This document shows, piece after piece, positions 30,180 through 58,283 of a stretch of 64,000 nucleotides of DNA (position 1 is the stretch's first letter; each line of letters opens with the position of its first letter). This DNA comes from Stegostoma tigrinum. Lineage: Eukaryota. The DNA is taken from NCBI RefSeq assembly GCF_030684315.1, contig NC_081378.1:40172191-40236190 (forward strand), given 5' to 3'. Made by a program: the position numbers and the translations under genes. The notes under the pieces are model-generated. The model had not been told where the DNA came from. It did not search any database and was given only the letters and a program-made list of their open reading frames with translations.

Positions 30180-32580
30180 TGTAGTTTGATTGAAATTTAA
30201 TTTGTATCTGAAATAACTCCAGAGCTCAGTGTCCTGTTACCAAGTCACCCTTTATTTACATGTAGAGAGCCCTTGACACTGGTCCAGCTTCCTCCAAGCC
30301 AGTTCTGAGTGCCAGGGATGTCTGACCCTCCTGTTTGTATTTGTCAGGTAGGGCTCCCTGCTTGGATCACCTTAACAGCCCCAATCAGGGAATTCACTCT
30401 GTGAGGGCCACTTGATTGTAACAGGGTCAATTACAACATCCATTCTCAACAACCACAACCACCCCACCACCACCCTCCCCTCACTTCCTCTCCCTGAGTC
30501 TGACAACAAAGGCTGGTTCATTTTCTTGTAGCTTCTCCTGGGGCATCTTAGCACTGGGTCAGGTTCCCCCAACTCTGGCTCAGATACAGGTGGTGTGTAA
30601 TGCACAGTAGAGGCAGTGATATCTACCATGTCCATCCCAGATTCTGAGATGGAGATGGAGAGGGAGAACTCATTAGTTCTGCGAGCCTCACCGATTTGTT
30701 CTGAGGATTCGGGCATGTTTTGCTCCTGACCTGTTTTGTGAATTTGCAGCTATTATGTAGTCCAAGTGGTTGTTCAAGATCATTTTACCAGTCGTAACTT
30801 TATATGTCACGAGACCTGACCTCATGTCGATGATGCCCCTTACCCATGCAGGGCCGTTCCTGTAGTTCTTAGACCAAACTTTGTTCCCTGAAGGAAACTG
30901 CCTCTACTGCTTAGTGAAGTCTTGTGTCTGGCATTGACATTCCTGATGCTGTTTCACCCTTCCCCTCCCCAGGTCCAGGAAAATCCGATTTAACCTGGAG
31001 CAGAGTCTTCTCCATTTGTGCAACTCTGCTGGAGCTATCCCTGGATTTGAACAAGGGGTGGTCCTGTAATCGAATAGGAACCAGGACAGTTGAATGTCTA
31101 GTGAAGCTGTAGGCTGAAAGCCTGCCTTCAAAGTTTGGACTGCTCTTTCTGCCAAACTATTGGGTGGTGGATAGTATGGACCTGTCTTATATGTTGAATA
31201 TCTTTCAACTTTAGGAAATGCTCCAATTCCCTGCTGGTAAACAATGGCCCGTTATCTGTGACCAACAACTCTGTGAGTCTATGAAATGCAAAATTTGCAC
31301 ACACTTTTTCTATTGTTGTCCCTGTGTTTTACAAATGAGCACTATGCACATCCAGTATGAGTCGGCACCCACAATGACTAAGAACATTGAGCCCATGAAA
31401 GGGCCTGCATAGTTGACATGTAACTGAGTCCAGGGTTTACCTGGTTATTCCAATGAATGTGGGGGAGTTGCTGGCAGTAATTTTTATCAATTGTTGGCAC
31501 TAACTTTTATCGTTGACCCTAGCTTTTATCATGGTTGGCACTCTGGGCACTGCACCACCAAAGCTGCTATGCCTGTATCTGGTCCTGGCCACTAGACATG
31601 ACTTCTCACGAATATCTTAATTTTGGAAACCCTGGAATGATCCTGGTGGAGTTCAGCCAGTGGTCATCTTTGCTCAGGACAATCACTCTTGCTCCCCATG
31701 ACAATATGCCATCCTCTACTATGACCTGGTCTCTCTGGGTCCAAAATGGTTCCAATTCCAGTTGTGCTAGTCCTTTGGTTTCCCCCATCACCACCAGCTG
31801 TTTCAGTTTTGCTGGGACTGAATCTTTTTGTGTCCACAGACCAATTATTTTCAGCAGTAACCAGAAGCGTGTCGAGAATATTTAAAGCTATTACAGACTC
31901 TTCCAATGATAGTACCACCAATGGTGTGTTTGTCAGCGGGAGGTGACTCAAGGCATCCGCATTTGCTACTTGGCCTCTTGGATGGTGTTGCAGCTTGTAC
32001 TTGTACACAGTATCAGAGCCCAGTGCTGAATTGAGCCTGAAGCTATGGGTGGCACTGCTTTATTCTCTTTAATTAGAATGAGCAGGGATTTGTAGTCTGT
32101 TTTCAATTACATATGTAGACCTAGAGATAACAAAGGAGCCATAGCAAAAATCAACACGTCTTCTCCTTCTCAGCTTTTCGTTATATTAGAGTTCTTTATC
32201 ATCATGGTGGAGATCGCTGTAGCAGTTGTCGGCTTCTGGCCACATGAGCACAACTCGAGCCTCAGTGAATCCCAAAGGTATGGACTCTAGTGAATTGAGT
32301 GTTGAGACCCAACATGCAAGAACAAAGCTTGCTTTACTCCATTATTTTACAAATTTACATTCGTAAAGGCATTGGTGGAACTTCCTGACTTCGCATATGA
32401 CCGCCAAAGTTTCCTTCTCAAACTGGACATATTTACAATCTGCATTCACCAAAGTCCTGAACGCGTAAGCTATTGGGCCATTCATGAGCTAATACTATCC
32501 CGACACCATGGGGGGAGGCATCGCATGTCAATATGACATCTCACTAAGGATCATACTGTACCCATCCCACCCAGACTTGT
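30180..32580 (-). mobile_element. Decayed Ty3/Gypsy LTR retrotransposon: RNase H/integrase relics, PPT and 3' LTR (30180-30438)
   Basis: Minus-strand ORFs YKYKLQHHPRGQVANADALSHLPL, EDGILSWGARVIV, AERAVQTLK..FLFDYRTTP..GIAPAEL; LTR bounded TGT..ACA with an adjacent purine tract on the minus strand (about 30450-30495). Confidence 0.85.
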
Positions 32581-35129
32581 CTAAACTTTGAGAAAAGTAC
32601 TCTGTGTCTCTCAGTGTGTCTCTCAGTCCAGACAACCACTTAAGTTGCATCCACCATTTTCAGCTTTTTCAGTGCTGTATTAAAAATTAAGTTTTATTGT
32701 AAGTTAAAAATATCCATTGTTTCTCAGGGCTCTGAAACAAGGACAAGGACAAAAACTGTTGTTTTGTTTTTGCTGACTGTGGAAGCTTTCCATGTGAAAA
32801 TTGTTTGTCATGTTTACAGTTGACCTGGTCCAAAACTATGTGGATTTAATAAGATGTAATTCTTTCCAACTGTCTGACTACAGTATTAAGTTGAATGCCC
32901 ATTAGCTAATTATTTTATTTCCAATTCTTGACCTTTTACTTTAATATGTTACTTTGAGAATTTTACTTTTTTTATTCAAAACAAAGTATTTTTGTCAGAT
33001 AAAATGACCAAGTCATTTCATGAATGGTGTAAATTTATTTTACAGGATTGAAACTAATCAGTAAGAAATGAAATTTCAATCATGTCTTCCCTAACATCTT
33101 GCCACTTAAAACATGCTTGTTAATAGCTATGAACATTTTTAATGTGTATAATTTACCAGCATTTGGCATTTGTAATTTTAATTCAACATTGAAAAGCCTG
33201 CATTTACGAAATTGAACTTGCTAAACAACAAAAACACAACTATTGCCAACGAGTCCTCAAAAATTAAGAGGTACAGAATGACGTGAGCAAGTATTCTCCT
33301 TTTGGTCATTGTCATTCATCTGTTAGTGAAGAGCACAAGCATTACCAAGGCCAGACAACCTATTTTTAAAACAATGTTGATTTGAAAGGATAGGTCTAAA
33401 ACTAAAGACTAAAGTTTTCCCATATAGTTGAAAATTGGCACTTCTGCCAAAGAACTTTATGTAATGGGAGTTCATACTAAAAATCCAGGTTCTGAGATCA
33501 GTTATTGGCTGTCCATTTGATTGTGCATTTGTTGAATTGTATGGATTTTGTAGAATGTTAATCAGGTGCATGGATCTCCATCCTGAATTCCAAATCTGTG
33601 ATCACTCTGGAGACATTAATTAATAAGATTTATTTTTAAGAGATGGTACAAAATAAATGAAAATTAAATACAGGTAATTAAAACTAATGGGCAGCTGAGC
33701 ATTCGTTTCTATGTCTCATACTTTCTATGATTCCTGAATTTCAGGTACCGTGAACAAGGGAGTCCACAAATCCAAGATCCACAGCGCTGGTCAATAGTTT
33801 CACCCTGGACTGATAAGAGGAGTCCTTATTTGAAGATTAGTTAAACACCAAAAGCATTTGTTATCAGGTAATACACAAGAGCAAAAGGAATTGATGCTTT
33901 AAAAGTTAGATATGTGTTACTGGGAAGTTCCTGGAATGATGGTTTGCACTGATGCAAAATTACTGAGAACCAGTGCTCTCCGAAACTCATTCTCTCCTGA
34001 GACTGACTTTAGCACGTACTTGAGACAAGCAGTTTCACTACTGAGGAAGGGAAATTAGACTTGCTCAGATGATCAGGCAAACTATGTGCCATAAGTACAA
34101 TACAGTTGTAAAAGTTGCTGTCAGAAATATCTTCCATCAGTTTTATTCTTGCTGTCCCTTCTCTACTTCTGAGGTGGTTGTCTGACGCACTTTTCAGAAT
34201 TCATACTGTGGATTTAGGAAACGCTGTTGGCGTCTCAGTTCTTCAGCTGCCTGGACAGTCTGTTCAAAACTGCATGGACTTTAGTTGATAATGTGATCAA
34301 CAATAATAAAGTAGACATATAGACATGAGAGTATTGATGGGGATAGGGATGAGGATTAGAGTAAGCAATGCCCCAAGTTTCAAGTACCAATAATGCAGGT
34401 ACGTTTGGGGCCTCTGGACTGTTGACTGGATTTTCTGATAAGTGGAGAGTTGCCAAGAACAAGAGGGAAAATGTAGTGAGCTTGGCATCAGGGGATGAAT
34501 TTTACATTTTTAATAATGATGCCTCTGCTTTAGCAACCAAATGTATTTGCTACATGTGAAAGAGAGTTGTTCGAGTGGTCAAGTCACATCATTGAGAGGA
34601 ATGGTACCACATTTTTAGATGAGGGCAATATGGTTGACATTGTTCACTCGAATTTTTGTGAGATATTTAGCAAAACTTTTCACTTGAGGACAGTTGTGGA
34701 AATGGAGAGAATAATTCATTCGTGAAAAACAAAAAAGTTGTAAGAAAAAAATCCAACCATTTGATCTGTGTTGTTAAAAATAGAGGATGCAACGTAATGC
34801 TAAGATAATCCACAGATGTAAAATACAACCGAACCCAATTGGCCTGAATAGCCTTTGCACAATTGAACATTTTTCATTTTTCTTGTCTAAAAGTACAACA
34901 TTCCATTCCATGTGTTGGCTCAGTCAAACATGACCTGATGACAGGAAATATTTCCATTGTCATGAAAAAACAATGCAGTATTTAATTTTCATTTTTTTTC
35001 AGAAAGCAATATACTTCATCTGCTGCACTGACAGCTAAGCACAAGAATCTGCTCAAAAAAAGGAAAACGTATCACACGGATACAAACAAAATACACTCTG
35101 TGACACCCAAAAACAAACCTCCTGCTTTC

Positions 35130-35313
35130 GGCAGAAGGTGTAATTAGATGGCTGACAGCACATCACTGAGGAAACTATCAGGCCCAGCAATACAGTGCAC
35201 ATCATTAGAATAAGACACGCTATTCCTGTTTTATGAAGAGGTAATTAACACATTCTGAGACTGTGTTATGTGACTGAGGATATTACTGGTGCACAATACA
35301 GGACAAAAGGAAC
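35130..35313. promoter_or_regulatory. Candidate conserved non-coding element, copy 1
   Basis: 173/184 identical to 47863-48046 with no indels while the flanks are highly diverged; has TAATTA x2, TGACAG and TATC motifs; no shared long ORF. Confidence 0.6.
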
Positions 35314-35624
35314 CGCTTTTCTGAAAATACTCTATACAACTAAGCCTGTATGTTGATGCCAGAAATTCAATTCCTATTTTCAAATGTACATTTGCTATAT
35401 TCATTCTTACAGAAACTTGTTGTGAAATTGTTTTGTGTGATATTTATTGGAAAAAAGCTTGATACAAAAGTGTGACAATTTAATGGAAGGTGTAGTCAAA
35501 TCGATGGATTAATATCCCAGCCGAACTCTTGTACAAGTGAATTTCATACAGGCCAAGATAATGTTTTAACTCCACAGATTACAGTTAGCTGAGGACAGGG
35601 AAAGTATACAGTTCCATTAGAAAA

Positions 35625-36195
35625 AGGAAAGAATTTGCAGAACCTCAGGATATCTCAAAGCATTTTGCAGCCAATGAAGTACGTTATGTGTTGTAACTAT
35701 GTTATTGTGCGATATCGGGCAGCCAATTTACACACCGCGAGATGTCGCAAACAGTATTGAAACAACAACCACATTCATTTGTTTTAAGTGATGGTGATTG
35801 AGGGACAAATATTGGACAGAAGAATGCACCTGCTCATCTTTGATATAGTGCCATTTGTTGCATCGGTGCCTCCAGGAAGATTTTTGTTTACCATCTCAGC
35901 TGGAAATGAGTACCTCTGACAGCAATTCTTGTGAGTTACTCATTTAGAATTCCCAGCCTCCACCCTGCTGTTATAATTGCCTCTACAAGTTTCTCAGTTC
36001 TGAAGAAGTCATTACTGGACTTAAAAGTGTTAACCGTTTCTCTCTTCAATGATGCTCACAGTTTCTCCAGCACTTTCTGTTTCTCGTTCAGATTTCCAGC
36101 ATCTATAGAATTTTGCTTTCATTTAAGTGGAAGCTATTATTATGTTCTCAAGACTTGAGTGGTACTTGAACTCATGACCTCCTAACTTAGAACCC
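35625..36195 (-). mobile_element. SacSINE1/LF-SINE-like tRNA SINE, interrupted by a PLE pseudo-LTR (about 35990-36125)
   Basis: Body CTCAAAGCATTTTGCAGCCAATGAAGTAC..GGCAGCCAATTTACACAC..ACCTCTGACAG; reversed B-box GTACTTGAACTC near 36165. Confidence 0.5.
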
Positions 36196-36437
36196 ATGAC
36201 CAATTTTACAATGACAGTGGATCTGGATCATTTCCAGAGTGCATGAAACGCTGTAAGTGTAAAAATCACAGTAGGAATGCATGCTTGATACAAATGGATT
36301 AGAGAAGCCAATGTTGGGACAATATTTTCAGATGACTAGAGCAGTAGAGGATTCAGGGTATTGTTGTGAAAAGACAGAGGGAACAGGTATTAAGAAGTAC
36401 GTCATTAGACAGTGTAAGCAAAGCCTGGAATAGGTTA

Positions 36438-37045
36438 AGATAACAAAGTGTGGAGCTGGATGAACACAGCAGGCCAAGCAGCATCTCAGGAGCACAAAAG
36501 CTGACATTTTGGTCCTAGACCCTTCATCAGAGAGGGGGATGGGGAGAGGGTTCTGGAATAAATAGGGAGAGAGGGGGAGGCGGACCGAAGATGGAGAGAA
36601 AAGAAGATAGGTGAAGATGAGAGTATAGGTGGGGAGGTAGGGAGGGGATAGGTCAGTCCAGGGAAGACTGACGGGTCAAGGAGGCGGGATGAGGTTAGTA
36701 GGTAGGACGTGGAGGTGCGGTTTGAGGTGGGAGGAAGGGATAGGTGAGAGGAAGAACTGGTTAGGGAGGCATGGACAGGCTGGGCTGGTGTTGGGATGCA
36801 GTGGGTGGAGAGGACGAGCTGGGCTGGTTTTGGCATGCAGTGGGGGAAGGGGAGATTTTGAAGCTTGTGAAGTCCACATTGATAACATTGGGCTGCAAGG
36901 TTCACAAACGAAATATGAGTTGCTGTTCCTGCAACCTTCGGGTGGCATCATTGTGGGACTGCCGGAGGCCCATGATGGACATGTCGTCTGAGGAATGGGA
37001 GGGGGAGTGGAAATGGTTCGCAACTGGGAGGTGCAGTTGGCCATG
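36438..37045 (-). mobile_element. Penelope family A 3' fragment
   Basis: Reverse-complement homologue of 23350-23940 (HLPVANHF..DDMSIMGL). Confidence 0.9.
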
Positions 37046-37622
37046 ATGGACGTGGGGACCGTTTTGCAGAAAACGCGACCCCAGCTTGGAATAGGTTGTC
37101 AGGATGTTGGATTTAGTTGAGATTCAACTAAATGCTGAAATTGAATGCAGTAACATTGATGTTCTTCAAGCATATTATCAAAGTTGATTGGAGTTGGCTC
37201 CTGTATGTGCTAAGTCTTGTGAAATCATCAAAGTATATTCATACCTTTGTTGTGCAGCAAGGTTCTTGAAGCTGCTTGCTATGGCTCTCACACTAACCCC
37301 ACAATATTTTGAAACCAGACAAGACAGGCTGGTCTTGTCACTGGATCTTGGCACCATTGCCATCAGTTCTGGTGATACACCTGCCAGTGTTAGATCATGA
37401 ATCAGCCAGATATTTTGGGCCACGAGGGAGATGGTTGAGCTTGAATTAAGAACCAGCCAGGAGACCCAAGGGAGAACTTTTTGAACTCAGGTGACCGGCA
37501 ATGCATTCACATTGTCTACTGCGTCAAGCCTGGAGAATGTGAGACTGCCTTTCCCAGAGAGAATTCTCTCTGCAGTCAGATTGGGCTCTGGCTTTGGAAT
37601 AAGATGGTAACTTGGAGTACTC

Positions 37623-37869
37623 TGTAGAGCCCTGGTTGCCCTGCTTTTGGAAGAGAAATAACTCCACAGAGGCTGGTATCCCATCACTAAGTCACCTTTT
37701 ATTTACACAGTATGGGACTCTGACCATCAGTACCTGGAGTGAGGAAAATCCATGAATCTCTTAATTATATATGGCATCCAGGGCTCCCTGATTAGACCAG
37801 GTTAATAGCCCCAATTAGGGAACTCATTTCAGTGAGATCCATCTGGTCATCCTCATTCCAATCATAACA
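37623..37869 (-). mobile_element. Solo LTR related to the Gypsy LTR at 30180-30438
   Basis: Shares TGTAG start, GAAATAACTCC, AAGTCACC.TTTATTTACA, GGGCTCCCTG, GCCCCAAT.AGGGAA and an AACA end. Confidence 0.75.
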
Positions 37870-38365
37870 GGAATGATATTATCACATTGGAGAGGGTTCA
37901 GAAAAAGATTTACCAGGATGTTGCCAGGAATGGAACAATTGAGTTAGGCCAAATAGGCTGGGACTTTGATCACTGGATCACAGGAAATTGAGGCACGACC
38001 TTATGGAGGTTTATAAAATCATGAGGGGCATAGATAATGTGACTAGCAAAAAAATCTTTCCCTAATACAGGGAAGTTGAAAACTAGAGGGCATATTTTTA
38101 AGGTGAGAGGAGAAAAATTTAAAGACATGATGGGTAACTTAGTTTACACAGAGAGTGGTTCATATGTGGAATGAACTGCCAGAGGAAGCAATGAATGTTG
38201 TCCAATTAATGTGTAAAAGCCATTTGGATAAGCATATGAAAAGGAATGGTTTGGAGGGATATGAGTTAAATGCAGGTAAGTGGGACTAGTTTAGTTTGGG
38301 AACGTGGTCGGCATGGACTCGTTAGACTGAAGGGTCTGTTTCCATGCTATATGACTCTGACACTA
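37870..38365 (+). mobile_element. CR1 LINE 3' fragment
   Basis: LERVQKK..TRMLPG, EVYKIMRGID; tail GGGTCTGTTTCCATGCTATATGACTCT. Confidence 0.88.
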
Positions 38366-38639
38366 TCACTGCAAGATGGAAAGTGTTACAATAATACAAA
38401 TGTTGTCATGTTGATATACCATCTAGAAATTTGATGCGTTTAAAGTAAGAGTTTTGAATTTTGTTGCTATCCACGGGGTTAGTGTGCTGGGAATGAAGCT
38501 TCGCTGTTACTGGCAATGTCTTAAACAGTAAAGATTTTAAAAGAAACATTCAAAATCCCCAAGCTCCTGAATCTTCAGACCCAGACAGAAAGCATGGATC
38601 GGGTTTCTGCACTTGAAAAGAATCACAATGTAGCTCTTT

Positions 38640-38745
38640 CTTTTCTAATCAACCTGTTCAGAGATGTTATAACACAACTCTGGAGTAGGGGAAACGTGAA
38701 ACCGGGGCTCCTGGCTCAGAATTAGGGCCACTTCCCCAGCACCAT
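38640..38745 (-). mobile_element. Very short tRNA-derived SINE-like repeat (also near 1545-1620 and 25270-25352, + strand)
   Basis: Shared tail TCTGAACAGGTTGATTAGAAAA; B-box-like GGTTCAAGTCC in the 25298 copy. Confidence 0.5.
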
Positions 38746-38954
38746 CAGACCCCTTAAGGATCTTACAAATAATAAGATTTGAGCCACTGGTAAACAATTA
38801 AACTCAATTGTGAATACTCTTCTAGTTAAAACTCTAAACCTCTTATAAACACTGCTTTGCGCACGTGCAAATACATACACATACAGGCACATAAACAGGT
38901 ATAAGCAGGATAAGAAAGCACTTGGGTGAAGGGAAAACGGGGCTAACTTCATCA

Positions 38955-39995
38955 CAAAAACGGAAATTGCTGGAAAAACTCAGCAGATTCAGCAGCATCT
39001 GTGAAGAGAAAACAAAATCAATGCTTTGGGTCCAGTGACCCTTCTTCAGGACTGACAGCAGCTAGGAAGAGGTGGTATATTTGCTATAAGGAAGTGGGGG
39101 GGACTGGTTCGAGTGGTGGTAAGGAAGTAAGTGATAGGTGGAGATGGAGCCCAGACAGAGGGAAAGGCAGTTAGGCAGACGATGCAATGGATAACTGTAA
39201 GCCAGGAAGAATAAAAAGTTGATCATGGGGACCATTTGCTGATAAAAATAGGCCCTTTCCTTCCAGGATACCCTGGTATCCTCCTTCTCATGCAGTCGCA
39301 GAAGGCGTAACTTCTGCTTGTTTGCTTTCTCCTTCCTCACTATCCAAAGGTCAAACATACCACCCGGGATGAAGTAGCAATTTGCCTGTACCTCGCTGCC
39401 TCTAACTCTGTCCCTTGACCCGGACTCCTCCTTCTGGTCTTTTAGCTTCACTGGACCTGTTCATTGAGAACTGTCAATGTGGCATCTGTGCCCTTCATTT
39501 CTCTGGTTCCTTCACCCACTCAAACCGATCTCCCATTGAACAGAACACCATGCTCTCAGATCCAGCCTTGACTTTGTCATCAAGCCTGCTAACGCGGGGG
39601 CGATGCTGGCATTGTCTGGCAGACTGACTACCACATTGTGAAGGCTGAGGGCCAGGTCTCAAACACCACGTCCTAACATCCCCGGACCATGACCCTACTA
39701 TCAATCACCTTGGCTATTGTGTCCACAATGGTCATTCATCTCCATTTCATCTGGGAATCTTCCCACTATGAAGAACCTCCAAGGTTATATTCCCCAACCA
39801 CATACAGAGCAATTCTACCTTCTTCTGAAATCCACAAACAGGACTGCACTGCACCAGCAAGTAAATTGTCTCAGCCCCACAGACTTTACTTCTTCCTTTC
39901 TTGTCTCAATGTTTTCCTCTCCTCGTTGAGTCCCTTCCCACTTATATCTGCGATTCTTCTGATGCTTTACATCAGTTTCAGAATTTCCCATTCAC
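38955..39995. mobile_element. Older Penelope family B remnant with internal inversion
   Basis: 38955-39410 is the minus-strand pseudo-LTR/EN end; 39410-39995 is a plus-strand RT relic (IPQPHTEQFYLL.. / EIHKQDC, cf. PQPRTARFYLLPKIHK). Confidence 0.6.
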
Positions 39996-40019
39996 AGCCC
40001 CCAGTTCTTCCTCTTCACA

Positions 40020-40432
40020 CATCAATAGAAGCTCTTAGTATCAGTCTTTGTGTTGTCTGCAAGCTTTTTTTGCACCACATTTTCCCTTTTTTTAATCAAT
40101 CCCTAGGTCCTTCTTTGAATTCTAAACTGCTCCCAATCCTCAAACATTTTATTTTTCTTGGCCAATCTGTTTGCTTCTTCCTTGGATCAGATACTATCTC
40201 TAATTTCCCTTGTTAGCCATGGATTGGCCCTCTCACCAACATTGCTTTTGTGTCTGACAGGAATAAACAGTTGTTGCAGTACCCTGATATGTTCTTGAGT
40301 GTTTGCCATTGCTGATCCACTGTCATCACTTTAACTAACTCTCCCCAATCTATTAAGGTCAACTGACTCCTCATATCTTCATAGTTTCCTGTATTAAGAT
40401 TCACCATCCTAGTCTCTGAATCAATCAGTCCC
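40020..40432 (-). mobile_element. CR1 ORF2 internal fragment
   Basis: ORF 40213-40434 NLNTGNYEDMRSQLTLIDW..TVDQQWQTLK (CR1 EN-RT linker). Confidence 0.7.
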
Positions 40433-42417
40433 ACTGCTATTCCCCACCAGCCTCCAATAATTTCCCTACAGTCTTGAAAATTGCTTTATTTTCGAGCATA
40501 GTTCTGTTATCATATCTTGCTGCATATGGGCTGGTTGATTGACTATGTATCCACGGTCACAGTTTGTGATTTTAACTTAATCATAACAGTTGGTATGTGG
40601 AGGAATTCATTCTCTGAAAACGTGTGAATGATTATCATAAACAGCATAAAATGTTAAATTGAAGGTTTGTAGGCTTGCTGCTGTATTCCTACTTGTAATA
40701 ACAGCATATACCCATGCACACAAATGTAAACCCAATAATTAGGATAGAGTGGACAAGGCCCATTTCAATGCTTTCCATAATTCACTTCATGTTAATAGTG
40801 TTACTTGAACTTCAAAAAATGTTCAACTTCCCAGCACTTACATTTCTCACCTGCATTGTCCCAACTGGGGTTCATATAGACCACATCCATGACAAGTATG
40901 GGTTACTTGAGAACCTTCTGCTCTGAGCTGATGAGCCGAAGTCTGAGATTCAAGCACTGCAACACAACAGTAAAGGGAAGAGTTACCTGAATGCTGTGTT
41001 TCAGGAGGCAATCAGTCCCCTGAAATTAACTACCTCAATTTCGGTTAGTGATCAAGGACAGGAGGGTGTGACTTTGTGAGGCAGGTAGAGGGATTCAGGA
41101 GGTAATGCTGAAGGAGCCTCAGCCCTTCAGTGTGTCTAACAGATGTGAGATTCTTGATCCCTGTGTAGACGAGAGTGGGGGCTGTAGGGAGGAGAGCAAA
41201 CTAACCATAACACAAGGAGCCATTCAGGAAGGGGAGCAAAAAGAAACGGTACTTGTAATCCAACATTAACAGACACTGCTCTCTGTGGCTGCAATCGAGA
41301 GACATGAAGGCAGTGTTGCCTGTCTGATGCCCAGGTTCAGGATATCTAACGCGAGATGCAGAGGAACTTGGGGTGGGAGGTAAAGATCCAACTGATGTAG
41401 CCCATGTAGGTGCCAACAAAATAGGTAGAAAGAGGAAAAAGGAAAAGGGCTGAAGGAATATGAGCGACTAGGTGCCAAATTAAAAAGCAGAACTAAAGTG
41501 GTAATAATGCATGATTATTTGCCACAAGCAAATGATACAGGGTTAACAGCATTTTAAAATGTCTGGTATCACAGAGAGATGGCTGCGAGGGGATCTGGGC
41601 TGGGAAGTAAACATTCAAGAATTCCTGCCCTGTTGAAAGTACAGACAAATGGGCAGAGGAGGTGGGTTGCCTTGCCAGTAAGAAATGGAAATAAATCAAG
41701 AAGAAGTGTAGAGTCGGAATGCGTAGAATCTGTGTGGGTAGAGTTGTGGAATTGCAAAGGAAAGAAGACCCTGACTGGAGTTATGTAGCAGTGTTCAGGA
41801 AGTGGGAAAGAAAGTAAATCAGGAGATCCAGAACATGAATAAGAAAGGCACTAATGCAATAATCATGGGGGACTTCAACACACAGGTGGATTGGGATCAG
41901 GTTTGTAGCAGATCTCATTAAAAGGCATTTGTACAATGTCTACGAGATGGTTTTTGAGCAGCTTGTGGTAGACCCCATTTGGGAACAGAAAATTCTGGAT
42001 TTGGTGATGTGTAATGAGGCATTTATTCAGGGAGTTTTAGGCGAAGGAACCCTTTGGGGGAAGTGACTATAATATGATAGAATTTTCACCACAGTTTAAC
42101 TGGGAGAAACTGGGTTTAGACATAACATTATTACAATTGAGTGAAGGTATCCACAAAGATATGAGACAGGATCTGGCCAGAGTAGATTTGAAGGGTAACC
42201 TAGTGAGGAAGACAGTGAGGCAGCAATGGTAGGAGTTTCTGGGGATAATTCAGGAGGCAGAGCAGAAATTCATCCCAAGGACAAAGAAGCATACCAGGGG
42301 GATGGTGAGGCAGACATAGCTGAAAACAGATGTCAGGGACAGCAGAAAAGCAAAAGAAAAAGCAGACAACATGATGAAGGTTAGTGGGAAGTCAGAGAAT
42401 TGGGAAGCCTTTACAAA

Positions 42418-42736
42418 GGGTGGCACGGTGGCTCAGTGGTTAGCACTGCAACCTCACAACACCAGGGACCGAGGTTTGATTCTAGCCTTGGGTAACTGTC
42501 TGTTCAGCTTTTGCACACTTTCCCTGTGTCTGCGTGGGTTTCCTCTGGGTGTTCCGGTTTCCTCCCATTGTCCAAAGATGTGCAGACTAGGTGGATTGGC
42601 CATGCTCAATTGCCTGTAGTGTTCAGGGGTGTGTAGGTTATCGTGGGGATGGGTCTGGGTGGGATGCTCCAAGGAGCGGTGTGACTTGTTGAGCCAAAGG
42701 GCCTGTTTCCACACTGTAGGGAATCTATTCTATTCT
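42418..42736 (+). mobile_element. Full-length HE1-type V-SINE inserted in CR1
   Basis: GGGTGGCACGGTGGCTCAGTGGTTAGCACTGC (A-box), GGTTTGATTC (B-box), V-domain, (ATTCT)n tail. Confidence 0.92.
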
Positions 42737-42999
42737 AAAACAGCAAACGATAGCGCAAGAGCAATAAGAGGTGACAACATGAAATATGAAGGTAAAATAG
42801 CTGATAATATAAGATTGCAAGAGTTTATAAGATAAGTAAAAAGTAAGAGAGAGGCAAGAGTGAGCCTTTGACCACTGGAAAATGAGGCTAGAGAAGTAGT
42901 TTTATAACAAAGGAATGGTGGAGAAATTGGATAGGTGTTTTACACTAGACTCCAGAGTGAAAGATACCAGAACTTCTCTCACCCCTACTATCTGGTTGC

Positions 43000-43066
43000 T
43001 TCAGAAGTCACACGACACCAGCTCATAGTCCAACAGGTTTATTTGAAATCACAAACTTTCAAAGCT
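43000..43066 (-). mobile_element. Penelope family D pseudo-LTR fragment inside CR1
   Basis: TCAGAAGTCACACGACACCAG..GTCCAACAGGTTTATTTGAAATCAC, homologous to 22062-22120. Confidence 0.6.
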
Positions 43067-45189
43067 CTGGGTCCCAGAGGACAGGAAAATGGCTAATATA
43101 GTACCTGTTTAAGAAGGGAGGGAGGCAAAAAATGAAAAATTCTCCAGGCTGGTTAGACTGACCTCAATCATTGGTAAGATTTTAGAGTCCATTATTAATG
43201 ATGAGATTACAGACTACTTGGAAGTTTGTGGTATAAGAGGGCTGAGCAGCTCGGCGTAATCCAGGGGAAGTCACGCCTAATAAATCTGACAGAATTCTTT
43301 TGAAGATGTAATGAGCAAGTTAGACAAAGGAGAGCCAGCGGACATGATCTATTTGGATTCCCAGATGGCCTTTAACAAGATTCCACACAGGAGGCTGAGA
43401 AATAATATAAGAACCCACGCTGTTAAGGCAAGGTACTGGCATGGGTATAGGATTAACTGACTGGCAGAAAATAAAGAGTATGGATAAAGGAGTTCTATTC
43501 AGGTTAACAGCTGGTGACTAGTGGAGTTTGATTAGGCTCAGGGTTGGGACCACAACTACTCACGCTACTTATTAACGATCTAGTTGAAGGAACTGAGGGC
43601 ATTGTTGCTAAATTTGCAGATGACACAAAGGTGGATGGACAGGTAGTGTTGATGAGATGGGGAAGCTGCAGAAGGACTTCAACAGGCTAGGAGAGTGGGC
43701 AAAAAAATGGCAGATGGAGTACAATGTGAGAAAGTGTGGGATTATGCACATTAGTGGGAAACGTAGATGGGTAGATTATTTTTTAAATGGGGAAAGATTT
43801 TGGAAATATGAAGCACAAATTGACTTGGTAGTTAGGAAGGCAAATGCAATGTTAGCATTCATTTCAAGAGGGCTAGAATACAAAAGCAGAGATAGTGAAT
43901 TTGCATAAGGCTGTGGCCAGGCTTCATTTGGAATGTTGTGAGCAGTGTTGGGCCCCGTATCTAAGGAAGGAAGTGTTGGCCTTCAAGAGGGTTTAGAGGA
44001 GGTTTATAGGAATAATCCCAGGGATGAAGGGCCCCAGGAGCATGTGAGGACTCCAGGTCTGGGCTCAATGGAGTTTAGGAAGATGACGGGGGATCTGATT
44101 GAAATTTACAGAATACTAAGGGACCTGAACAGGGTGGACGTGGACAAGATGTTTCCACGGATAGGAGAGACTAGGAACCGAAGGGATGGACTCAGAGTAA
44201 AGGGACAACCTTTAAAATGAAATCAAGAAGTATTTCTTCAGCCAGAGAGAGGCAAGTCTGTGGAGGCCAAGTTATTGAATGTCTTGAAGACAGAGATAGA
44301 TAAGCCCTTGATTAGAAAGGGGATCATGGGTTATGGGGTGGGGGAGGTAGGAGTACAGTGTTGGGAAACACATCAGCCATGGTTGAATGACAGAGCCACC
44401 TCACTGGGCTGACTGGCCTAATTCTGCTCCTATATCTTATGGTCTAAATAGTAACAGTTATTCCATCACAAACACAAAGTTGACACATTTTAAATGTTTT
44501 CTTAATGACAATGATTGGATCAAGGGAATGATTATGCTCATCAAAAGCTAATGCTATTTTTGGTTTTAAACTGCATCATTAGCTGAGCTGGTGATGTTCA
44601 CCACTTTGACTCAGAATGCCATGGGGTCAGATGAGACTTTAGGAATTGAGCATATAACTTAAACTATCCTTCAGTGACATACTGAGGGATAAGTGAATTA
44701 TCAATGGTGTCATTTTGTAATGCAACATAAACCAATGACATCCATCTTTATGCTCCACATAGAACATCGTTCTTTCCTCGTATTATGGTCAGGTCTGGCA
44801 CCATAACTGACAAAACCATATTCATGTTCATTCATCAAACGTGCAAAAGATCCTAATGTTACGCTTGCAATTGCTCAGTGCTGACTCCATATGAGGGTTT
44901 CGTGCTGTGAATACCTCTGGAAAATCACACACAGGAACTGGCCATAGCCTTATCTGCTAATTGCAAAATTCCTTACATGTAATTTGGTTGTGTTGTTTTA
45001 AGAATATGACTGACTGCATTTTGAAACTAATGAATTTGTCATGACAAGGCTGGGATGTCCTTTGGGTGTTTTTCCTGTCTAGTTTAAGTATTGCTTTCAG
45101 TTCAAAGCCCCATTAGATAATTTATCAACACAAATCAGAAAAGATTTCCCATGGTGATGTGGGAATGGAGAGTTTGAGATATTAAACTG

Positions 45190-45606
45190 CAAAGACTGGG
45201 ACTTTACTTCAGTGGAGCACAGGGGTTTGGGGTGTGACCTTCACTGAGGTTTATAAAATCATGAGGGAGAGATATAAATAAAGTGAATGACAAGAGTCTT
45301 TTCCCCAGGGTGGGGGATTTCAAAACTAAGGATCGTATATTTAGGGTGAGAGGAGAAAGATTTAAAAAAGGGTATGAGGCAACTTCTTTTACACAGATTC
45401 GTTCTTTTGTGGAATGAGATGCAATAGAATGTGGTGGATGTAGGTACAGTTACAACTTTTAAAATACATTTGAATAAGTTTCTGAATAGGAAAGGTTTGA
45501 AGGGTAATGGGTCAAGCACAGGCAGGTGGGACTAGTTTAGTTTGGGAACATGGTGTGGACCAGTTGGACCAAAGGGTCTGTTTACATGCTGTATGACTTA
45601 ATGACT
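45190..45606 (+). mobile_element. CR1 3' fragment inserted in duplication copy 2
   Basis: EVYKIMR; tail GGGTCTGTTTACATGCTGTATGACT. Confidence 0.85.
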
Positions 45607-47422
45607 GTTTTCACTGTACTTCCAATTTATTATTATTTAACCCAATAACTTTTGTTGAAGAAATTAACCTTTTTCTATTATATTAATAATATAAATAATA
45701 ATATGTAATTTAATAATTTCAAATTAATGCAAGTGAAATAGTCAAGTCATGTACTTCACTATTAGTCTACATTTGGTAAAAAAAATTAAAAGATTGAGCC
45801 TCATAGGAATTCAAATGTCCTTTATGTCTCCACGCTGACATTTTGTTGCCTGAACTTTACTTGTAAATAGCCATCAATGGCTCTGATATGTATAATTTAA
45901 CATCACTTGTATTTCTATAATAAAACTTGCCAGACAGACAGACAAATGAGTATCACCAAACCAAATGATACAGAATAACGTGGAGTGGCGGGGGGGGGGG
46001 GGTGGTTTGGCCATTTTTTTCCCTTACACACTCATCTGTTAATTAGAAACACTCATATGAAGGAGACCAAACATGACTTTTACAATAGCCAGTGAGAGAA
46101 AATGAATGATATCAGTTCTTTTTCCCAATTTGATGAAAATTAGCACACCTGGTACAGAAACCTAATGGAGATTTGGGGGCATAGATCTCCAAGGCCTGAA
46201 TTCTTAGTCTGTGATCATGTTGTGGGATGTTCTACACTGGAGGCACTAACTCAGTGTTTATTTTGCAAGCTATATTCGGAGTGTAAATGTGAACAATCAA
46301 ACAAGTTATTACTTGTACACGAGAAGAAAAAGATTCTACTATTTCATACTTTGTAACTTTTTTGAGTTTCAGGTAGCCCTAATGGTTAGGAAGGGAGAAG
46401 AACTGTGAATTTCAGATGTACAGAACACCATCTCAACCTGGAATAAGAAGGGAAGTTCTTACTGGAGATCATGTTACCACAAAAAAAGCCACTGTCATCA
46501 GGTAATGAAAGTGGATAAAATGACTTGCCACTTCACAACTGGGTTTGCGTTACTGGGAAGTAGAGAAAGATGGATTTCACTCCCATCAAATTAACAAGTT
46601 ACCACGGCCACACTTTCAGCAGAATGACATCTCACATACTTTCAAATATTATCACTGTTCCAGAAGAGAGGTTTGACTATATTATCAGGCAAACAAGCCA
46701 CGAACTTTAAGGGTACTACAGTTGTGAAAGTCTTTGCCAGGGAAATCTTCCATTTTGCTTTCACTCTGCATATGTAATATCCACACGTTTGAGGGTGTTT
46801 GAGTGTTGAAATACTCCACAGAGAAGATATTATGGATATTATATTGCTGGACAAGAGTGCACCTTCAGCCATGTCTGAAACGTAACCCTTTATTACAGCA
46901 ACGATTCCAAATATGTGTTTTGTCCAGCTCAGGGGAGTTGTTTGGCTGTGCCAGTCAGATTCATAAGGGTAACTTGTGTGCCTGTCTTATATACGCCAAA
47001 AATAGTGGGATTTTCTTAATGATTAAAAAAATTGACAAATATACTTATATTTTGAAAAGCCTTTGGAAAAATACTCCTCATGTAAGGCTCATATGGAACC
47101 TGACAGAACAGTTGACAAATTTGTTAAATGGTTTGCAATCTGCTTTTGCAAAAAAAAAATTGATGATAAATGATAATTGAATGTACATGCAGCAAACTCC
47201 ATTTTCCTGGAAAAACTCTAAAGAATAAAGTAAGCTGAGAACAACATTTTCCTGTTTAGTGCTCTGTAAGATAAGACATCAATAGTTAGTTTCATCCATA
47301 GGCTTCTACACTAACAGTCATGACTTGCGGGTGGAACGGGCTTGATGGGCTGAGAGGACTTTCTCACTCCAGATCTTTTTTTCTGTTCTTATCTAAACAT
47401 AAAGCAATCCATACTGTGTATG

Positions 47423-47650
47423 ATATAACAAGGTGTACAGCTGGATGAACACAGCAGGCCAGGCAGCATCAGAGCAGCAGGAAAGCTAATGTTTCAGGTC
47501 GGGGCACTTCTTCGGAAATGATTTCTGAAGCAGGGCCCAGACCCGAAATGTCAGCTTTCCTGCTCCTCTGATGCTGCCTGGCCTGCTGTATTCATCCAGC
47601 TCTGTACCTGGTTAGCTCAGGCTCCAGCATTGGCAGTTCCTATTATCTCT
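47423..47650. mobile_element. Palindromic Penelope pseudo-LTR pair (family A-like) with 12-bp TSD
   Basis: Arms are near-perfect inverted repeats; flanked by ATACTGTGTATG (47411-47422) and ATACTGCGTATG (47651-47662). Confidence 0.85.
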
Positions 47651-47862
47651 ATACTGCGTATGGGCTTTTTCAGATGTGATCACGTCACAAAAAAGGTAAA
47701 GGTTCCACTGCCATATAAAAAAACTACATGGTTCAGTGTTAAGAAATAACATTATTCTTCATTTACTGCAGCCAAGTGAAAATGTTGCCTAAAAAGTCGG
47801 AAATTTACCACGTGGATCCAAACAAAGCATGTTCTGTGAGATCCAAGGCAAAGCTGCTTTTT

Positions 47863-48046
47863 GGCAGAAGGTGTAATTAGATGGCTGACAGCACATCACT
47901 GAGGAAACTATCAGGCCCAGCAACACGGTGCACACCATCAGAACAAGACACGCTATTCCTGTTTTATGAAGAGGTAATTAACACATTCTGAGACAATGTT
48001 ATGTGACTGCAGGTATTACTGGTGCACAATACAGGACAAAGGGAAC
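47863..48046. promoter_or_regulatory. Candidate conserved non-coding element, copy 2
   Basis: Direct paralogue of 35130-35313, with identical runs of 61 bp and 50 bp. Confidence 0.6.
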
Positions 48047-48589
48047 TACTTTACTGAAAACACTCTTTGCAACTCAATCTGTCAGTTGCTACCAAGAAGT
48101 CAGCACAACAGGACTCTTTGGGAATATGCCCATTTTTCAGAGAGAACTTTTCAAATTTGTTCTTTTTGGACACTTTTATGGAAATACTGAAATCAAGTTT
48201 CTGTACTAATAGAGAACACAATATCGTGGACTGAAGGGCCTGTACTGTGATGTATTGTTCTATGTTCTATTATTAACGCCTGGCTTTTTACATCCACTTA
48301 TGGAAGCTGACAGAGTCCTACTTTAGGGGCAGAAGCTCTGGGTAAAGTCCGATTTGACGGCCACAAAATGTGTGTTGTAACTGAGCCAAAAAAGGTTGAT
48401 CTGTAAATCCTCGTTGGATTTAGTAAATGTAGGAGGGTTTCCTGGTCAGCCAGGACTCTGTGATGGCCAGAGCACACCAGCCCCTTCATGATAAAAGACT
48501 GCATGAGCAAGTTCTTGCCATGAGCAAATTTCATCCTCCTTGTGAGAACTACCATGTAAACATTCAAACCCATCTGCTCAAAAGTCTAG

Positions 48590-48765
48590 AGATGGCAAGA
48601 ACTGTAGATGCTGGAATCAGAGGTAACACAGTGTGGAGCTGGTGGAACACAGCAGGCCAGGAAGCATCAAAGGAGCAGGAAAGTTAACGTTTTGGTTCGG
48701 GAACTTGCCTGCTCTTCTGATTCTGCCTGGCCTGCTGTGTTCTTCCAGCTCGACACTGTGTTTTC
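48590..48765. mobile_element. Palindromic Penelope pseudo-LTR pair, decayed
   Basis: ACACAGTGTGGAGCTGGTGGAACACAGCAGGCCAGG is mirrored by CCTGGCCTGCTGTGTTCTTCCAGCTCGACACTGTGT; TCTAGA on both sides. Confidence 0.7.
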
Positions 48766-50554
48766 TAGATTAGAAATCCAACCTGGGGAAAGCAGTGGGT
48801 TTACACAAAGTCACTGTGACCATTTTCACCTCTCATCGGAAAGGCACTGCCAAAGGGCCCAATTTTAAAACAAGTTGCAGTTGGGTGCATTTGACTGCAC
48901 CTCCCCTGCCTCCATCCCTAAGGCTTCTCCAATTCCACATAAACCCTATGTTGTAATCATGCCCAGTTCTCCTCCCGTGCTGAATGATCCTCTTGACAGG
49001 AATAGCTACTGGTGCCTGGAGCTTAGCACCTGCATCAGTTTAGACCAGCAAGATTCTTCATAGCTGAACGCCAAACCTTTTATGCCATTATCATCTCCTA
49101 TGTACCTTATACCTAGAATCTATTAAGCTTAAATGTTAAAAAAGTAAGTTGTTTGTTTCAGACAAACTCCACAGAATTGGTGGTGGGCGTACCACATTTC
49201 TTAATTGTTATTTAATATCCTTTGGTATTGCCTACTGTCAGCTCATATGCCATTGAACATTTTACTAACAATTTAAACATGGGAAAGGATTACTTTACGC
49301 AGCTGTCGTATGAGGTTCTGCCTGTCTGCATACAGGCTTTCCCTCCCTGATAGTGAAGTTAATGAATGCAAATTAATTCAGTCCTCAGCATGTGACGTAG
49401 GGGAGTATCAGGCAAACCTTGCAGTCAACAGAAATAAATCCCACAAGAGATCAAATTACAAACAATCAGCAAACTTTTGGTATTTAGCCCATATTCACTC
49501 AGCTTTCATTTCAGAAAGAGAATTAACGGAAAGGCACAGGTGACAATTGTCTTCCTGTTTGTAAATATTTTAGTAGTTGTGTATTGCATTTCTAGTTGAG
49601 TCTCCGGAACATAAAAATGGCTTGTATGTCACAGGTCTGACATCTATTTGCACCTTTGTTACAATTGTCTTGCTTAACGAACACAGGCAGCTTGCTTCAA
49701 TTTGATATATTTTCTTTGCAACTATTGTTTTGCAGTGCAGTGTTTTGTCTAGCTCCTGTAATTTTGAATTTTAATATCAGGGAACTTGCAGTTACATACA
49801 TATACACCTTTTTACACCCCTCCCTCCCATAATACTTGCTTGTCAGGCTGGCTTCCTAGCTACGGCATCTCCCACTAGTGATTCCCCAGTCTACCCTTGA
49901 GTCACTACAATAATAAAAACAATGGATTTCCTTTGAGGAAACACAATGGCTGGCAATTTGCAAAATCCGAATTAACCGTCCATCATACTTAATCCCCATG
50001 CTCCAGTAATTTTGTTTTTCCGAATTGGTTATTCATTAATTCAGCTTACCCGCACAACAAAATTCCCTAAAGATATCACCAGCGCTTACAGTTAAAGCAA
50101 ATATGTTCAAAACAAATCTACGCATAGAACGGTAAGGTTTAAAAATAAAGGTACAAGGACTGGTTATAGAATTCCCTCTTTAAAGCAAAAATCACTCAGA
50201 CTTGTGACCTACGAAACATAACCGAGACCCATTTAACATTGTGTTCCACAAGAACATTTAGGAAGCAAATGGTTGTGAGTCAGATATGTCACTTACTCAT
50301 CAGCGTGGAGATTTGTCAAAGTGCATGAAGGATTCTAGACAGCTGTTTGGAAGGAAAAGGACAAAAATCCCTTAGAGGTTGCAAAGGCTTTGTAAGTCTT
50401 ATAAGTGCAATAGATTGCTGTGTGACTAAATAGCAATTTGAAACTGTTTTTGGTATAGAGAGGATGAAACTTCTTCAACTTTATAACATAACTTTCTCTG
50501 TCGTGCATTCCCTTCTGTGCATTTGTCGTTGTCCAATGCACATTTTCTTTTATT

Positions 50555-53760: not shown

Positions 53761-55072
53761 AATGCAATTCTAACAGAATTGTCACTGTGGTGGGCTCCGG
53801 TAGCAGTGAGAGATGACAGAAGTGAATTAGCAGAGAGCATTGACCTATTGATTCGACTTTACAGACCCAAGGCAAGTGGAAGCACCACAGCACCGTCTAT
53901 TGTGGAAATGAAGGCCAGTGGTAAGTATACCACACTGCCACCTACCCACGGAGCTGGATGTTGTTTATGGGAGGTAAATAGATCATGTCAAATTAATTAT
54001 GACAGAAAGGGGTTATGAGTGTGATTAAAAAACATGACAGAAATAGATACAATAATTATGTGCTGCAGGAAGTAACTGCAACATTTGCAGGAAGTCGGTG
54101 TGTACAAGACCTTTAATATATTACAAACAGACCGTCTCCAGCAACGCACCTAGTCAATTGGATGATAGGCTGCTTTGTCATTAGTATGATAGAAGAATAT
54201 TACAGGAAAGAAATACAACAGTTTCAGAGTTTGCACGCTGAACAGAACCTTACAAATGCATACTAGATAAAGTATGAAAGAGAAGAAATTGCAGAAATGC
54301 TTTAACCTGTGAAAGAAATATTGTGGCATTCCAGATATGAAAGTAACAGTGGATTGTCAGCAGAATTCTGTAATGCCCTTCTGGACGCTTCCCAGCCATA
54401 TTGACAATGCTACTTCAGTTTTCACTGCATATTGGAATAATTATGAATATTTGAAAGTTTGCCTTGGCATATCTTTACAATGATACAGATAAATATTAGC
54501 TTAGCATCACAGCTATGCTGGCAGAATCTCTGTTTAGACTGACAAATACTATTGACCATCTGAGCTCAAAATATTAATTTCTCATTTACTTTGTAATTTA
54601 GCATATTTTTGTTTTAAAAAATCCAAGTCCATTTGTTTGGGACGTGAGTCAGATTTCCCTGTTTGAAAGTACAGTGCTATGAATTGTGCTGAATATCTGA
54701 CATCTGATCAGTAAAGTTTCTCTTAAATTCAACTATCCATGAGTTGTAACTGGAGTCCAAATTAAAGCCAAGCTATAAATTTATTCACAAGCCCATCTTT
54801 AATCAATCTTGTCTTGCAGCCTTCCTGAAACATGGAAGGTTAGTATAATTTTTGGAGCTAGTTTCAGAAATTCTGATATTGAACTCACAAATAAATATGA
54901 TGGGAATTGTAAATAATTATGACAGTTGTTGTTGAATATTTTGTTTGGAACTGTTATCGTGGCTACATTTCTTGGCCAAAGATATTGAGGTCGCCAGCGA
55001 GATTTGAGAAGATTTGTAGCTCAGGTTGAGGTTCTGGATGTGAGTTTGCTCGCTTAGCTGGAAGGTTAGTTT

Positions 55073-55112
55073 TCAGACATTTCGTCACCATTCTAGGTAA
55101 CATCATCAGTGA
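55073..55112 (-). ncRNA. Minimal hammerhead ribozyme motif (family C pseudo-LTR)
   Basis: Reverse complement TCA-CTGATGA-T-GTTACC-TAGAAT-GGTGAC-GAAA-TGTC-TGA; 6-bp stem II, 3-bp stem I. Confidence 0.7.
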
Positions 55113-58243: not shown

Positions 58244-58283
58244 TCACTGATGATGTTACCTAGAATGGTGACGTAACGTCTGA
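58244..58283 (+). ncRNA. Minimal hammerhead motif with core mutation (GAAA to GTAA)
   Basis: TCA-CTGATGA-TGTTACCTAGAATGGTGAC-GTAA-CGTC-TGA. Confidence 0.55.

What the first reader, a model, noticed from the sequence alone, without database searches (positions are those of the whole stretch)
35130..48046. A 184-bp non-coding element kept nearly identical in two copies 12.7 kb apart
Seen: 35130-35313 and 47863-48046 align without indels at 173/184 positions, including perfect runs of 61 bp (GGCAGAAGGTGTAATTAGATGGCTGACAGC..CAGCAA) and 50 bp. The immediately adjacent paralogous sequence is only patchily alignable. No long open frame is shared and the mismatches are not third-position biased. Known: TAATTA (homeodomain) and TGACAG (Meis/TALE) motifs are typical of vertebrate developmental CNEs. 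Inference: this is a tandemly duplicated enhancer, or a structured RNA element, with both copies under purifying selection (a shadow-enhancer pair). Local gene conversion is the alternative.
Basis: partly seen in the sequence, partly recalled or inferred. Interest (0 to 1): 0.8.

Follow-up and report, generated by a model that had tools for sequence, protein, structure and literature searches.

The report
Old tandem-duplicated conserved element in shark
A short stretch of shark DNA was copied next to itself long ago, and both copies stayed almost unchanged while the DNA around them drifted apart, which most likely makes them a pair of gene-control switches of a known kind, though neither their function nor their target gene is shown.

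Summary
Confirmed: 173/184 identical, no gaps, only two copies in the window. The window is zebra-shark lineage DNA. The pair is the core of an old colinear duplication of at least 2.4 kb (32.9-35.4 kb vs 45.7-48.2 kb). Four flank segments sit at 0.46-0.54 substitutions/site and the core at 0.063, about 8-fold lower; at carpet-shark rates the duplication is roughly 200-400 My old. That excludes an assembly artefact or a recent duplication and argues against independent TE insertions. No Rfam family and no fold signal were found. Best reading (0.55): two cis-duplicated enhancer-like elements, both under purifying selection. One correction: the copies do share a 62-63-codon minus-strand frame with a hydrophobic stretch and silent or conservative changes, so a converted transmembrane exon is a live rival (0.12). 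Other rivals: non-coding exon (0.10), neutral conversion (0.10), H/ACA-like RNA (0.06), TE (0.05). Cross-species conservation, genome copy number, target gene and activity could not be tested: no vertebrate genome is among the tools. Duplicated enhancers are a known kind (a third of mouse shadow-enhancer sets, PMC13345019).

The parts
35130..35313 (.). Constrained core, copy 1 (184 bp)
47863..48046 (.). Constrained core, copy 2 (184 bp)
35314..35369 (.). Gap-free 3' shoulder of copy 1 (40/56 identical to 48047-48102); identity tapers off
48047..48102 (.). Gap-free 3' shoulder of copy 2
34903..35438 (+). Duplicated block B, copy 1 (core plus diverged flanks)
   Evidence: nhmmer E 1e-70; flank t 0.52-0.54
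47649..48167 (+). Duplicated block B, copy 2
32995..34212 (+). Duplicated block A, copy 1 (diverged, no protein family found)
   Evidence: nhmmer E 8e-39; t 0.46-0.52
45729..46836 (+). Duplicated block A, copy 2
35132..35146 (+). Left arm of an imperfect inverted repeat, invariant between copies; holds AGGTGT overlapping TAATTA (T-box-like plus homeodomain-like; motif names recalled). Copy 2: 47865-47879
   Evidence: repeat reached by 107 of 3000 shuffles
35242..35257 (-). Right arm of the inverted repeat, second TAATTA; invariant. Copy 2: 47975-47990
35153..35158 (+). TGACAG (TALE/Meis-type motif, name recalled), invariant. Copy 2: 47886-47891
35230..35235 (+). TTTATG (Cdx/posterior-Hox-type motif, name recalled), invariant. 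Copy 2: 47963-47968
35056..35244 (-). Shared stop-to-stop frame, 63 codons, hydrophobic stretch (rival: TM exon or small ORF). Copy 2: 47792-47977
35135..35240 (+). Candidate 106-nt non-coding exon between an acceptor at the block's 5' edge and an internal donor (rival). Copy 2: 47868-47973

Best explanation
An old local duplication (at least 2.4 kb, same orientation, now 12.7 kb apart after many transposon insertions) copied a DNA-level cis-regulatory element in the zebra-shark lineage. Both copies have since been held by purifying selection while their flanks drifted. Each copy most likely works as a transcription-factor-binding enhancer (or silencer) built from two inverted T-box-like/homeodomain sites plus TALE and Cdx/Hox-type sites, acting on a developmental gene outside this window, as a redundant or dosage-adding pair. 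Shown: duplication, extent, about 8-fold rate contrast, two copies in the window, no known RNA or protein family. Inferred: age, selection rather than conversion, enhancer function, the factors. Unknown: target gene and tissue.
For: Core t=0.063 (0.03-0.10) vs four flank segments at 0.54, 0.52, 0.46, 0.52 by pair-HMM. At whale-zebra shark dS 0.061-0.111 per about 50 My (PMC13100897 passages), K=0.5 gives 225-408 My. Conversion needs long, highly similar sequence, is disrupted by substitutions, indels and TE insertions, and in yeast duplicates was silenced early in non-coding DNA (PMC3924837 passages); here the flanks are about 65% identical and broken by TEs. Differences are clumped, not even: Greenwood p 0.035 for 11 sites; runs of at least 61 and 50 have p 0.003. 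Identity tapers at the 3' end (20,20,20,16,19,20,18,17,19,16,15,13 per 20 bp). Two TAATTA in the core: 0.13% of 20000 shuffles; GTGT(T)AATTA occurs 4 times in 64 kb, all in the cores. 0 of 11 differences fall in 40 motif positions (p 0.06). No host-gene exon among 687 of 2213 stop-to-stop frames scanned with Pfam; hits above cut-off were retroelement-type domains and one inserted TMEM200 fragment. This fits a gene desert or long intron.
Against: No cross-species or functional data. Motifs were picked after looking and their names are recalled. With adjacent changes merged into 8 events, clumping is not significant (Greenwood p 0.20; runs p 0.03; motif avoidance p 0.13), so a uniform post-conversion clock is not rejected. 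The 5' edge is abrupt, as a conversion tract end could be. The shared minus-strand hydrophobic frame and the + strand splice pair are each uncommon in background and are not predicted by this reading. About two thirds of short frames were not scanned, so small exons may have been missed.
Confidence: 0.55

Rival explanations
1. A duplicated coding exon on the minus strand (transmembrane or signal-peptide segment with a short tail, for example alternative last exons of a gene lying to the right, or a small ORF), homogenised by gene conversion about 30-50 My ago and under protein-level selection since.
For: Shared 63/62-codon frame with aligned stops; its 5 core differences are 3 silent + I/V + M/V, p 0.027 for 5 random transitions in that frame. 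A 19-residue hydropathy of 2.6-2.7 is reached by 8 of 694 tiles, including both copies and the TMEM200 fragment. Weak phase-1 acceptor in both copies (score 3.6). One aligned minus-strand AATAAA in block A.
Against: Silent sites are too conserved for the flank age (3 of about 28; p 0.003-0.016), so coding alone cannot explain the block. 69 core bases beyond the frame's upstream stop are equally conserved. No conserved donor. The tails align best at DNA level with out-of-frame gaps. Pfam best E 0.0017 below cut-off (about chance among 687 frames), NCBIfam none, PDB best E 0.48-0.69 (CXCL13 or an antibody chain, chance level), Atlas no hit.
Confidence: 0.12
2. A conserved non-coding or stop-containing (poison-type) cassette exon on the + strand, 106 nt, with conserved downstream intronic splicing elements, duplicated with a second exon-like piece 1.3 kb upstream.
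For: The acceptor (scores 8.2/7.7) sits at the sharp 5' edge and the donor (7.2/7.2) inside; 73 of 18116 tiles show this (thresholds set from the observed values). Stops in all three frames. Exon-like 33745-33867/46373-46501 keeps both sites in both copies.
Against: The splice matrices were approximate and recalled. The upstream intron (branch point region) is at neutral divergence (t 0.54), unlike typical conserved cassette exons (recalled). 73 bases after the donor are as conserved as the exon. No host gene was found.
Confidence: 0.1
3. Functionless DNA: a late gene-conversion tract (about 28-51 My ago at K=0.063) inside an old neutral duplication.
For: Abrupt 5' edge; transition-rich differences (9:2); uniform spread not rejected for 8 events; short distance between copies favours conversion (PMC3924837).
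Against: It would need pairing between sequences already about 0.4 apart, or over 150 My of continuous conversion of one 184-bp patch. Motif enrichment, clumping and the tapered 3' shoulder are unexplained.
Confidence: 0.1
4. An intronic H/ACA-type snoRNA or scaRNA (hairpin, ANANNA at 78-83, hairpin, ACA at 174-176 on the + strand), cis-duplicated with its intron.
For: The block ends just after ACA+3. A 36-pair two-hairpin model holds in both copies; only 2 of 11 differences lie in it, both G.U to G-C; one difference is at an N of the H-like box.
Against: No Rfam match to any snoRNA or scaRNA in the core even at E 10. 67-87 of 1162 shuffles score as well, and copy 2's minus strand scores the same. 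Model stems have pairing probability of at most 0.12, and the competing inverted repeat 0.76-0.99. The 5' UGAG is in a stem, not a terminal loop (definition from PMC2172171). No host exons. The model was built after looking.
Confidence: 0.06
5. Two members of a dispersed repeat family (old transposon or SINE with a conserved core).
For: The window is repeat-rich (22% self-matching); the 15-16-bp inverted repeat could be a decayed terminal repeat. Genome-wide copy number was not testable.
Against: Colinear flanks over 2.4 kb at one offset point to segmental duplication. Neutral TE copies would diverge evenly. No target-site duplication at the repeat arms (read from the sequence), conservation runs 56 bp past the second arm, and the repeat itself is weak (107 of 3000 shuffles; 23 of 347 tiles).
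Confidence: 0.05

Closest known systems
Duplicated conserved non-coding elements (dCNEs; McEwen et al., PMC2781166; PMC1896008)
   Same: Non-coding element of CNE size kept at high identity in two paralogous copies over a very long time while the flanks diverge.
   Different: Described dCNEs lie near separate paralogous developmental genes, and about two thirds date from early vertebrate whole-genome duplications. This pair is 12.7 kb apart in cis with alignable flanks, no gene is identified, and conservation across species is untested.
Shadow enhancers born by local duplication (PMC13345019)
   Same: Enhancer-body similarity plus homologous 5' and 3' flanks is exactly that paper's duplication signature (33.9% of 9,051 mouse sets show a duplication signature; 5.1% of mouse body-hit pairs have both flanks).
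   Different: There the enhancers are defined by chromatin and expression data and the calls are read as recent to intermediate duplications. Here activity is unknown and the duplication looks 200-400 My old with an 8-fold core/flank contrast.
Box H/ACA snoRNA / scaRNA
   Same: A hairpin-ANANNA-hairpin-ACA layout can be drawn on the + strand in both copies.
   Different: Not above shuffled controls, disfavoured by the folding ensemble, no Rfam family, CAB criterion fails in the 5' hairpin.

Membership tests
dCNE | Non-coding, non-repetitive | tested here: inconclusive
   Shared stops in all six frames across the core, no Rfam/Pfam family above cut-off, two copies in 64 kb; but a shared 62-63-codon frame exists and genome-wide copy number is unknown
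dCNE | Two paralogous copies far more alike than their flanks | tested here: met
   t 0.063 vs 0.46-0.54; Fisher p 2e-10
dCNE | Conserved between distant vertebrates | not testable with these tools
   No vertebrate genome collection; a 19-nt core stretch is in no paper text searched
dCNE | Each copy beside a separate paralogous developmental gene from whole-genome duplication | tested here: not met
   Copies are 12.7 kb apart in one colinear local duplication; no gene found between them
Duplication-born shadow enhancers | Body similarity with homologous 5' and 3' flanks | tested here: met
Duplication-born shadow enhancers | Both copies are active enhancers of one gene with overlapping patterns | not testable with these tools
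   Needs ATAC/H3K27ac, chromatin contacts and reporters
Box H/ACA sno/scaRNA | Box H after the 5' hairpin and ACA 3 nt from the end after the 3' hairpin | tested here: inconclusive
   Present, but 499 of 1162 shuffles place both boxes and 67-87 match the energy
Box H/ACA sno/scaRNA | Two stable hairpins dominate the fold | tested here: not met
   Stem probabilities at most 0.12; split fold 4-9 kcal/mol above MFE
Box H/ACA scaRNA | UGAG CAB box in both terminal loops | tested here: not met
   3' hairpin can expose UGAG; 5' UGAG pairs in the best stem-loop (definition)
Box H/ACA sno/scaRNA | Guide pockets complementary to rRNA/snRNA | not testable with these tools
   No vertebrate rRNA or snRNA sequence is held by the tools
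Protein-coding exon | Open frame with silent changes in excess and homologues in other species | tested here: inconclusive
   3 silent + 2 conservative in 38 codons; silent sites under-diverged; no significant family; vertebrate proteomes not searched with this frame
MITE / DNA transposon | Terminal inverted repeats at the ends plus target-site duplication | tested here: not met
   Arms at core 3-17 and 113-128, not at both ends; no TSD seen

The most novel reading that the evidence does not exclude
The block does double duty: a minus-strand exon for a membrane anchor or micropeptide (alternative last exons or a small ORF) overlaid on an enhancer-grade constraint that also freezes its silent sites, and this unit has been kept in two tandem copies in sharks for 200-400 million years.
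Probability: 0.07. Interest if true: 0.7.

Novelty: new member of a known kind. Interest (0 to 1): 0.38.

Why it matters
If both copies are selected enhancers, this is a clean, datable case of a regulatory element duplicated in cis and kept twice for hundreds of millions of years. The slow shark clock leaves the flanks alignable, so core and neutral rates can be read side by side. The 11 tolerated differences mark free positions for a reporter dissection, and the pair tests whether long-kept duplicate enhancers stay redundant or split their roles. The class itself is known, so this adds an example, not a new mechanism. It would matter more if the coding or RNA rival proved right.

Tried and rejected
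Rfam: 0 hits at gathering score in the window. At E up to 10 only chance hits near or in the cores, none a snoRNA or scaRNA within the core. At E up to 0.5 two miRNA-model hits on inverted repeat fragments elsewhere. ARAGORN found 0 genes.
Folding: whole core z -0.51, -0.52, +0.07, -0.51. A 3' hairpin gave z -2.85 in copy 1 minus but -1.38 in copy 2, and the window was chosen after looking, so pre-miRNA was rejected. The consensus fold has 0 two-sided changes in 51 and 48 pairs. One search used a mis-registered structure string and is void; it was redone, and two sequences give no power for covariation.
TMEM200 lead: DUF2371 hit at 32096-32287 (E 2e-7) first suggested a host locus. It is only a fragment of about 215 bp (32117-32330) lying inside a Gypsy-type pol relic (RNase H at 32345-32540), with no second copy, so it was dropped as a locus marker. 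Its paralogue could not be named.
Block A as a decayed coding exon or TE: no Pfam, homologue or Atlas hit. Third copy of the core or further duplicated blocks: none.
Chemokine or TSR resemblance of the shared frame: E 0.5-0.7 and below cut-off, treated as chance. Assembly artefact: rejected because the flanks are about 0.5 diverged and carry different insertions.
Literature: no paper held the 19-nt core stretch. Searches returned no description of this element or of a tandem CNE pair in sharks (library limited to open papers). Not run: bacterial/archaeal genome, phage and plasmid scans (not informative for a shark element).
Full report
Observation. The two stretches align without gaps at 173 of 184 positions, with perfect runs of 61 and 50 bp, as reported. 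A profile of both copies finds no third copy in the window.

Source. A Penelope-type reverse transcriptase frame at 55834-56661 matches four Stegostoma tigrinum proteins at 88-91% and the next hits at 65% or less, including Chiloscyllium at 59-61% (best 120 of 498 hits listed). The window is therefore zebra-shark lineage DNA. About 22% of it self-matches as repeats. I scanned 687 of the 2213 stop-to-stop frames of at least 20 codons with Pfam, including 388 of the 486 of at least 50 codons; the other long ones were mostly repeat-masked. Hits above cut-off were RVT_1, RT_RNaseH, ALKBH8_N (inside a LINE-like relic; that this model hits LINEs is recalled) and DUF2371/TMEM200. The last is a fragment of about 215 bp inside a Gypsy-type pol relic, not a resident gene. 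No host or target gene was identified, and small exons could have been missed.

Anatomy of the duplication. The core sits in a colinear, same-strand duplication with a steady offset of 12.6-12.75 kb. Block A is 32995-34212/45729-46836 (E 8e-39) and block B is 34903-35438/47649-48167 (E 1e-70); between them the copies do not align, and copy 2 carries a repeat fragment at about 47414-47655. Plain alignment inflates flank identity (shuffles give 58-60%), so I fitted a pair-HMM: core 0.063 (0.03-0.10), 5' flank 0.54, 3' flank 0.52, block A 0.46 and 0.52 substitutions per site. The four flank values agree, as a neutral clock would give, and the core is about 8-fold lower. Whale and zebra shark differ by dS 0.061-0.111 over about 50 My (PMC13100897, passages). 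On that scale 0.5 is 225-408 My and 0.063 is 28-51 My. The age is an extrapolation from one species pair. This rules out an assembly artefact and a recent duplication, and makes two independent insertions of a 184-bp element unlikely.

Selection or conversion. One genome cannot decide. For selection: conversion needs pairing of highly similar sequence, typically a few hundred bases, and stops as substitutions, indels and TEs build up; in yeast duplicates it persisted in coding regions, where selection keeps similarity (PMC3924837, passages). The differences are clumped (Greenwood p 0.035; two long runs p 0.003), identity tapers over a gap-free 3' shoulder, and none of the 11 differences hits the 40 motif positions (p 0.06). 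Against: merging neighbouring changes into 8 events weakens all three (p 0.20, 0.03, 0.13), the block ends were chosen on the data, and the 5' edge is abrupt. Selection with occasional conversion is also possible.

What the core contains. Two TAATTA sites (0.13% of 20000 shuffles have two), each joined to GTGT in an imperfect inverted repeat at core 3-17 and 113-128; the joined motif occurs 4 times in the 64 kb, all in the cores. The repeat alone is modest: 107 of 3000 shuffles and 23 of 347 window tiles reach it. TGACAG, TTTATG and GAGGAA sites are invariant. The factor names (homeodomain, T-box, TALE, Cdx/Hox, ETS) are recalled, and a paper search for the T-box/homeodomain composite with these motifs returned 0.

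RNA readings. Rfam gives nothing at gathering score and only chance hits at E up to 10. Whole-core folds are no better than shuffles, and consensus folds show no two-sided change. An H/ACA-like layout can be drawn on the + strand and is compatible with both copies. However, 67-87 of 1162 shuffles do as well, its stems have probability of at most 0.12, and the 5' UGAG is not in a terminal loop as scaRNAs require (PMC2172171, passages). I give it 0.06. A + strand acceptor at the block's edge with an internal donor defines a 106-nt exon with stops in all frames; 73 of 18116 tiles show this under thresholds taken from the observation and with approximate recalled matrices. The upstream intron is unconstrained, so 0.10.

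A minus-strand frame of 63/62 codons is open in both copies, with aligned stops; 38 codons are in the core. Its five differences are three silent, I/V and M/V (p 0.027 in that frame). It holds a hydrophobic 19-mer reached by 8 of 694 tiles, two being the copies and one the TMEM200 fragment. But only 3 of about 28 silent sites differ where 8-10 are expected from the flanks (p 0.003-0.016), the other 69 core bases are as conserved, no donor is conserved, and the tails align best with out-of-frame gaps. Pfam, NCBIfam, PDB and the Atlas give nothing significant. It needs conversion as well as coding selection: 0.12.

Mechanism committed to (0.55). Two cis-duplicated, enhancer-like DNA elements, both under purifying selection, binding homeodomain, T-box-like and TALE factors and acting on a gene outside the window. 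Shown: duplication, extent, rate contrast, lack of known families. Inferred: age, selection, enhancer function, factors.

Comparison with what is known. It works like a dCNE but is not a member in the strict sense: those lie beside separate paralogous genes and mostly date from whole-genome duplication (PMC2781166 and PMC1896008, passages). It has the sequence signature of duplication-born shadow enhancers, seen in 33.9% of 9,051 mouse sets (PMC13345019, abstract and passages), but activity is untested. Searches found no description of this element in the open library. 10.1101/2020.01.10.901173 (passages) was not informative; the papers were seen as listings only, apart from PMC2172171. No supplements were read; CNE or ATAC tables in supplements could contain this locus.

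Verdict.

Noticed in passing
window 32117-32330 (+): A frameshifted fragment of about 215 bp of a TMEM200-family coding sequence (Pfam DUF2371, E 2e-7) sits inside a decayed Gypsy-type pol region on the opposite strand, between its RNase H and integrase parts; it looks like a host-gene piece inserted into a retroelement relic.
   Followed up: partly
window 33745-33867 and 46373-46501 (+): Exon-like pieces of 123 and 129 nt in block A keep AG|GT at the start and a donor at the end in both copies, though the interior is about 65% identical with stops; possibly a decayed or non-coding exon, or chance.
   Followed up: partly
window 35277-35280 vs 48010-48013 (core 148-151): The three differences here can also be read as a one-base insertion and a one-base deletion four bases apart, which would keep spacing unchanged.
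   Followed up: no
window 35130-35313 vs 47863-48046: 8 of the 10 weak/strong differences have G or C in copy 2; copy 2 flanks are also slightly more GC-rich. Too few sites to test.
   Followed up: partly
window 55035-58321: Young Penelope-type element pieces in inverted arrangement (95-96% identical arms), with a second repeat family nested at 57365-57857.
   Followed up: partly
window 17665-17846, 24350-24475, 47414-47655, 48583-48766: Short inverted pairs of the same repeat-end fragment form near-perfect hairpins and give spurious miRNA-model hits.
   Followed up: partly
window 35620-35910: A SINE-like relic (resembles the Deu-domain shark SINEs; resemblance recalled, not tested) lies about 300 bp 3' of copy 1.
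   Followed up: no
window 8920-9200 and 53780-54200: Single-copy stretches that look CNE-like by eye (homeodomain and TGACAG motifs); 53865-53920 has a plausible acceptor-donor pair. No family hit.
   Followed up: partly
window 2710-2843 (+): Best-scoring splice-bounded open segment in the window (acceptor 12.4, donor 12.1); its frame (2667-2849) had no Pfam hit.
   Followed up: partly
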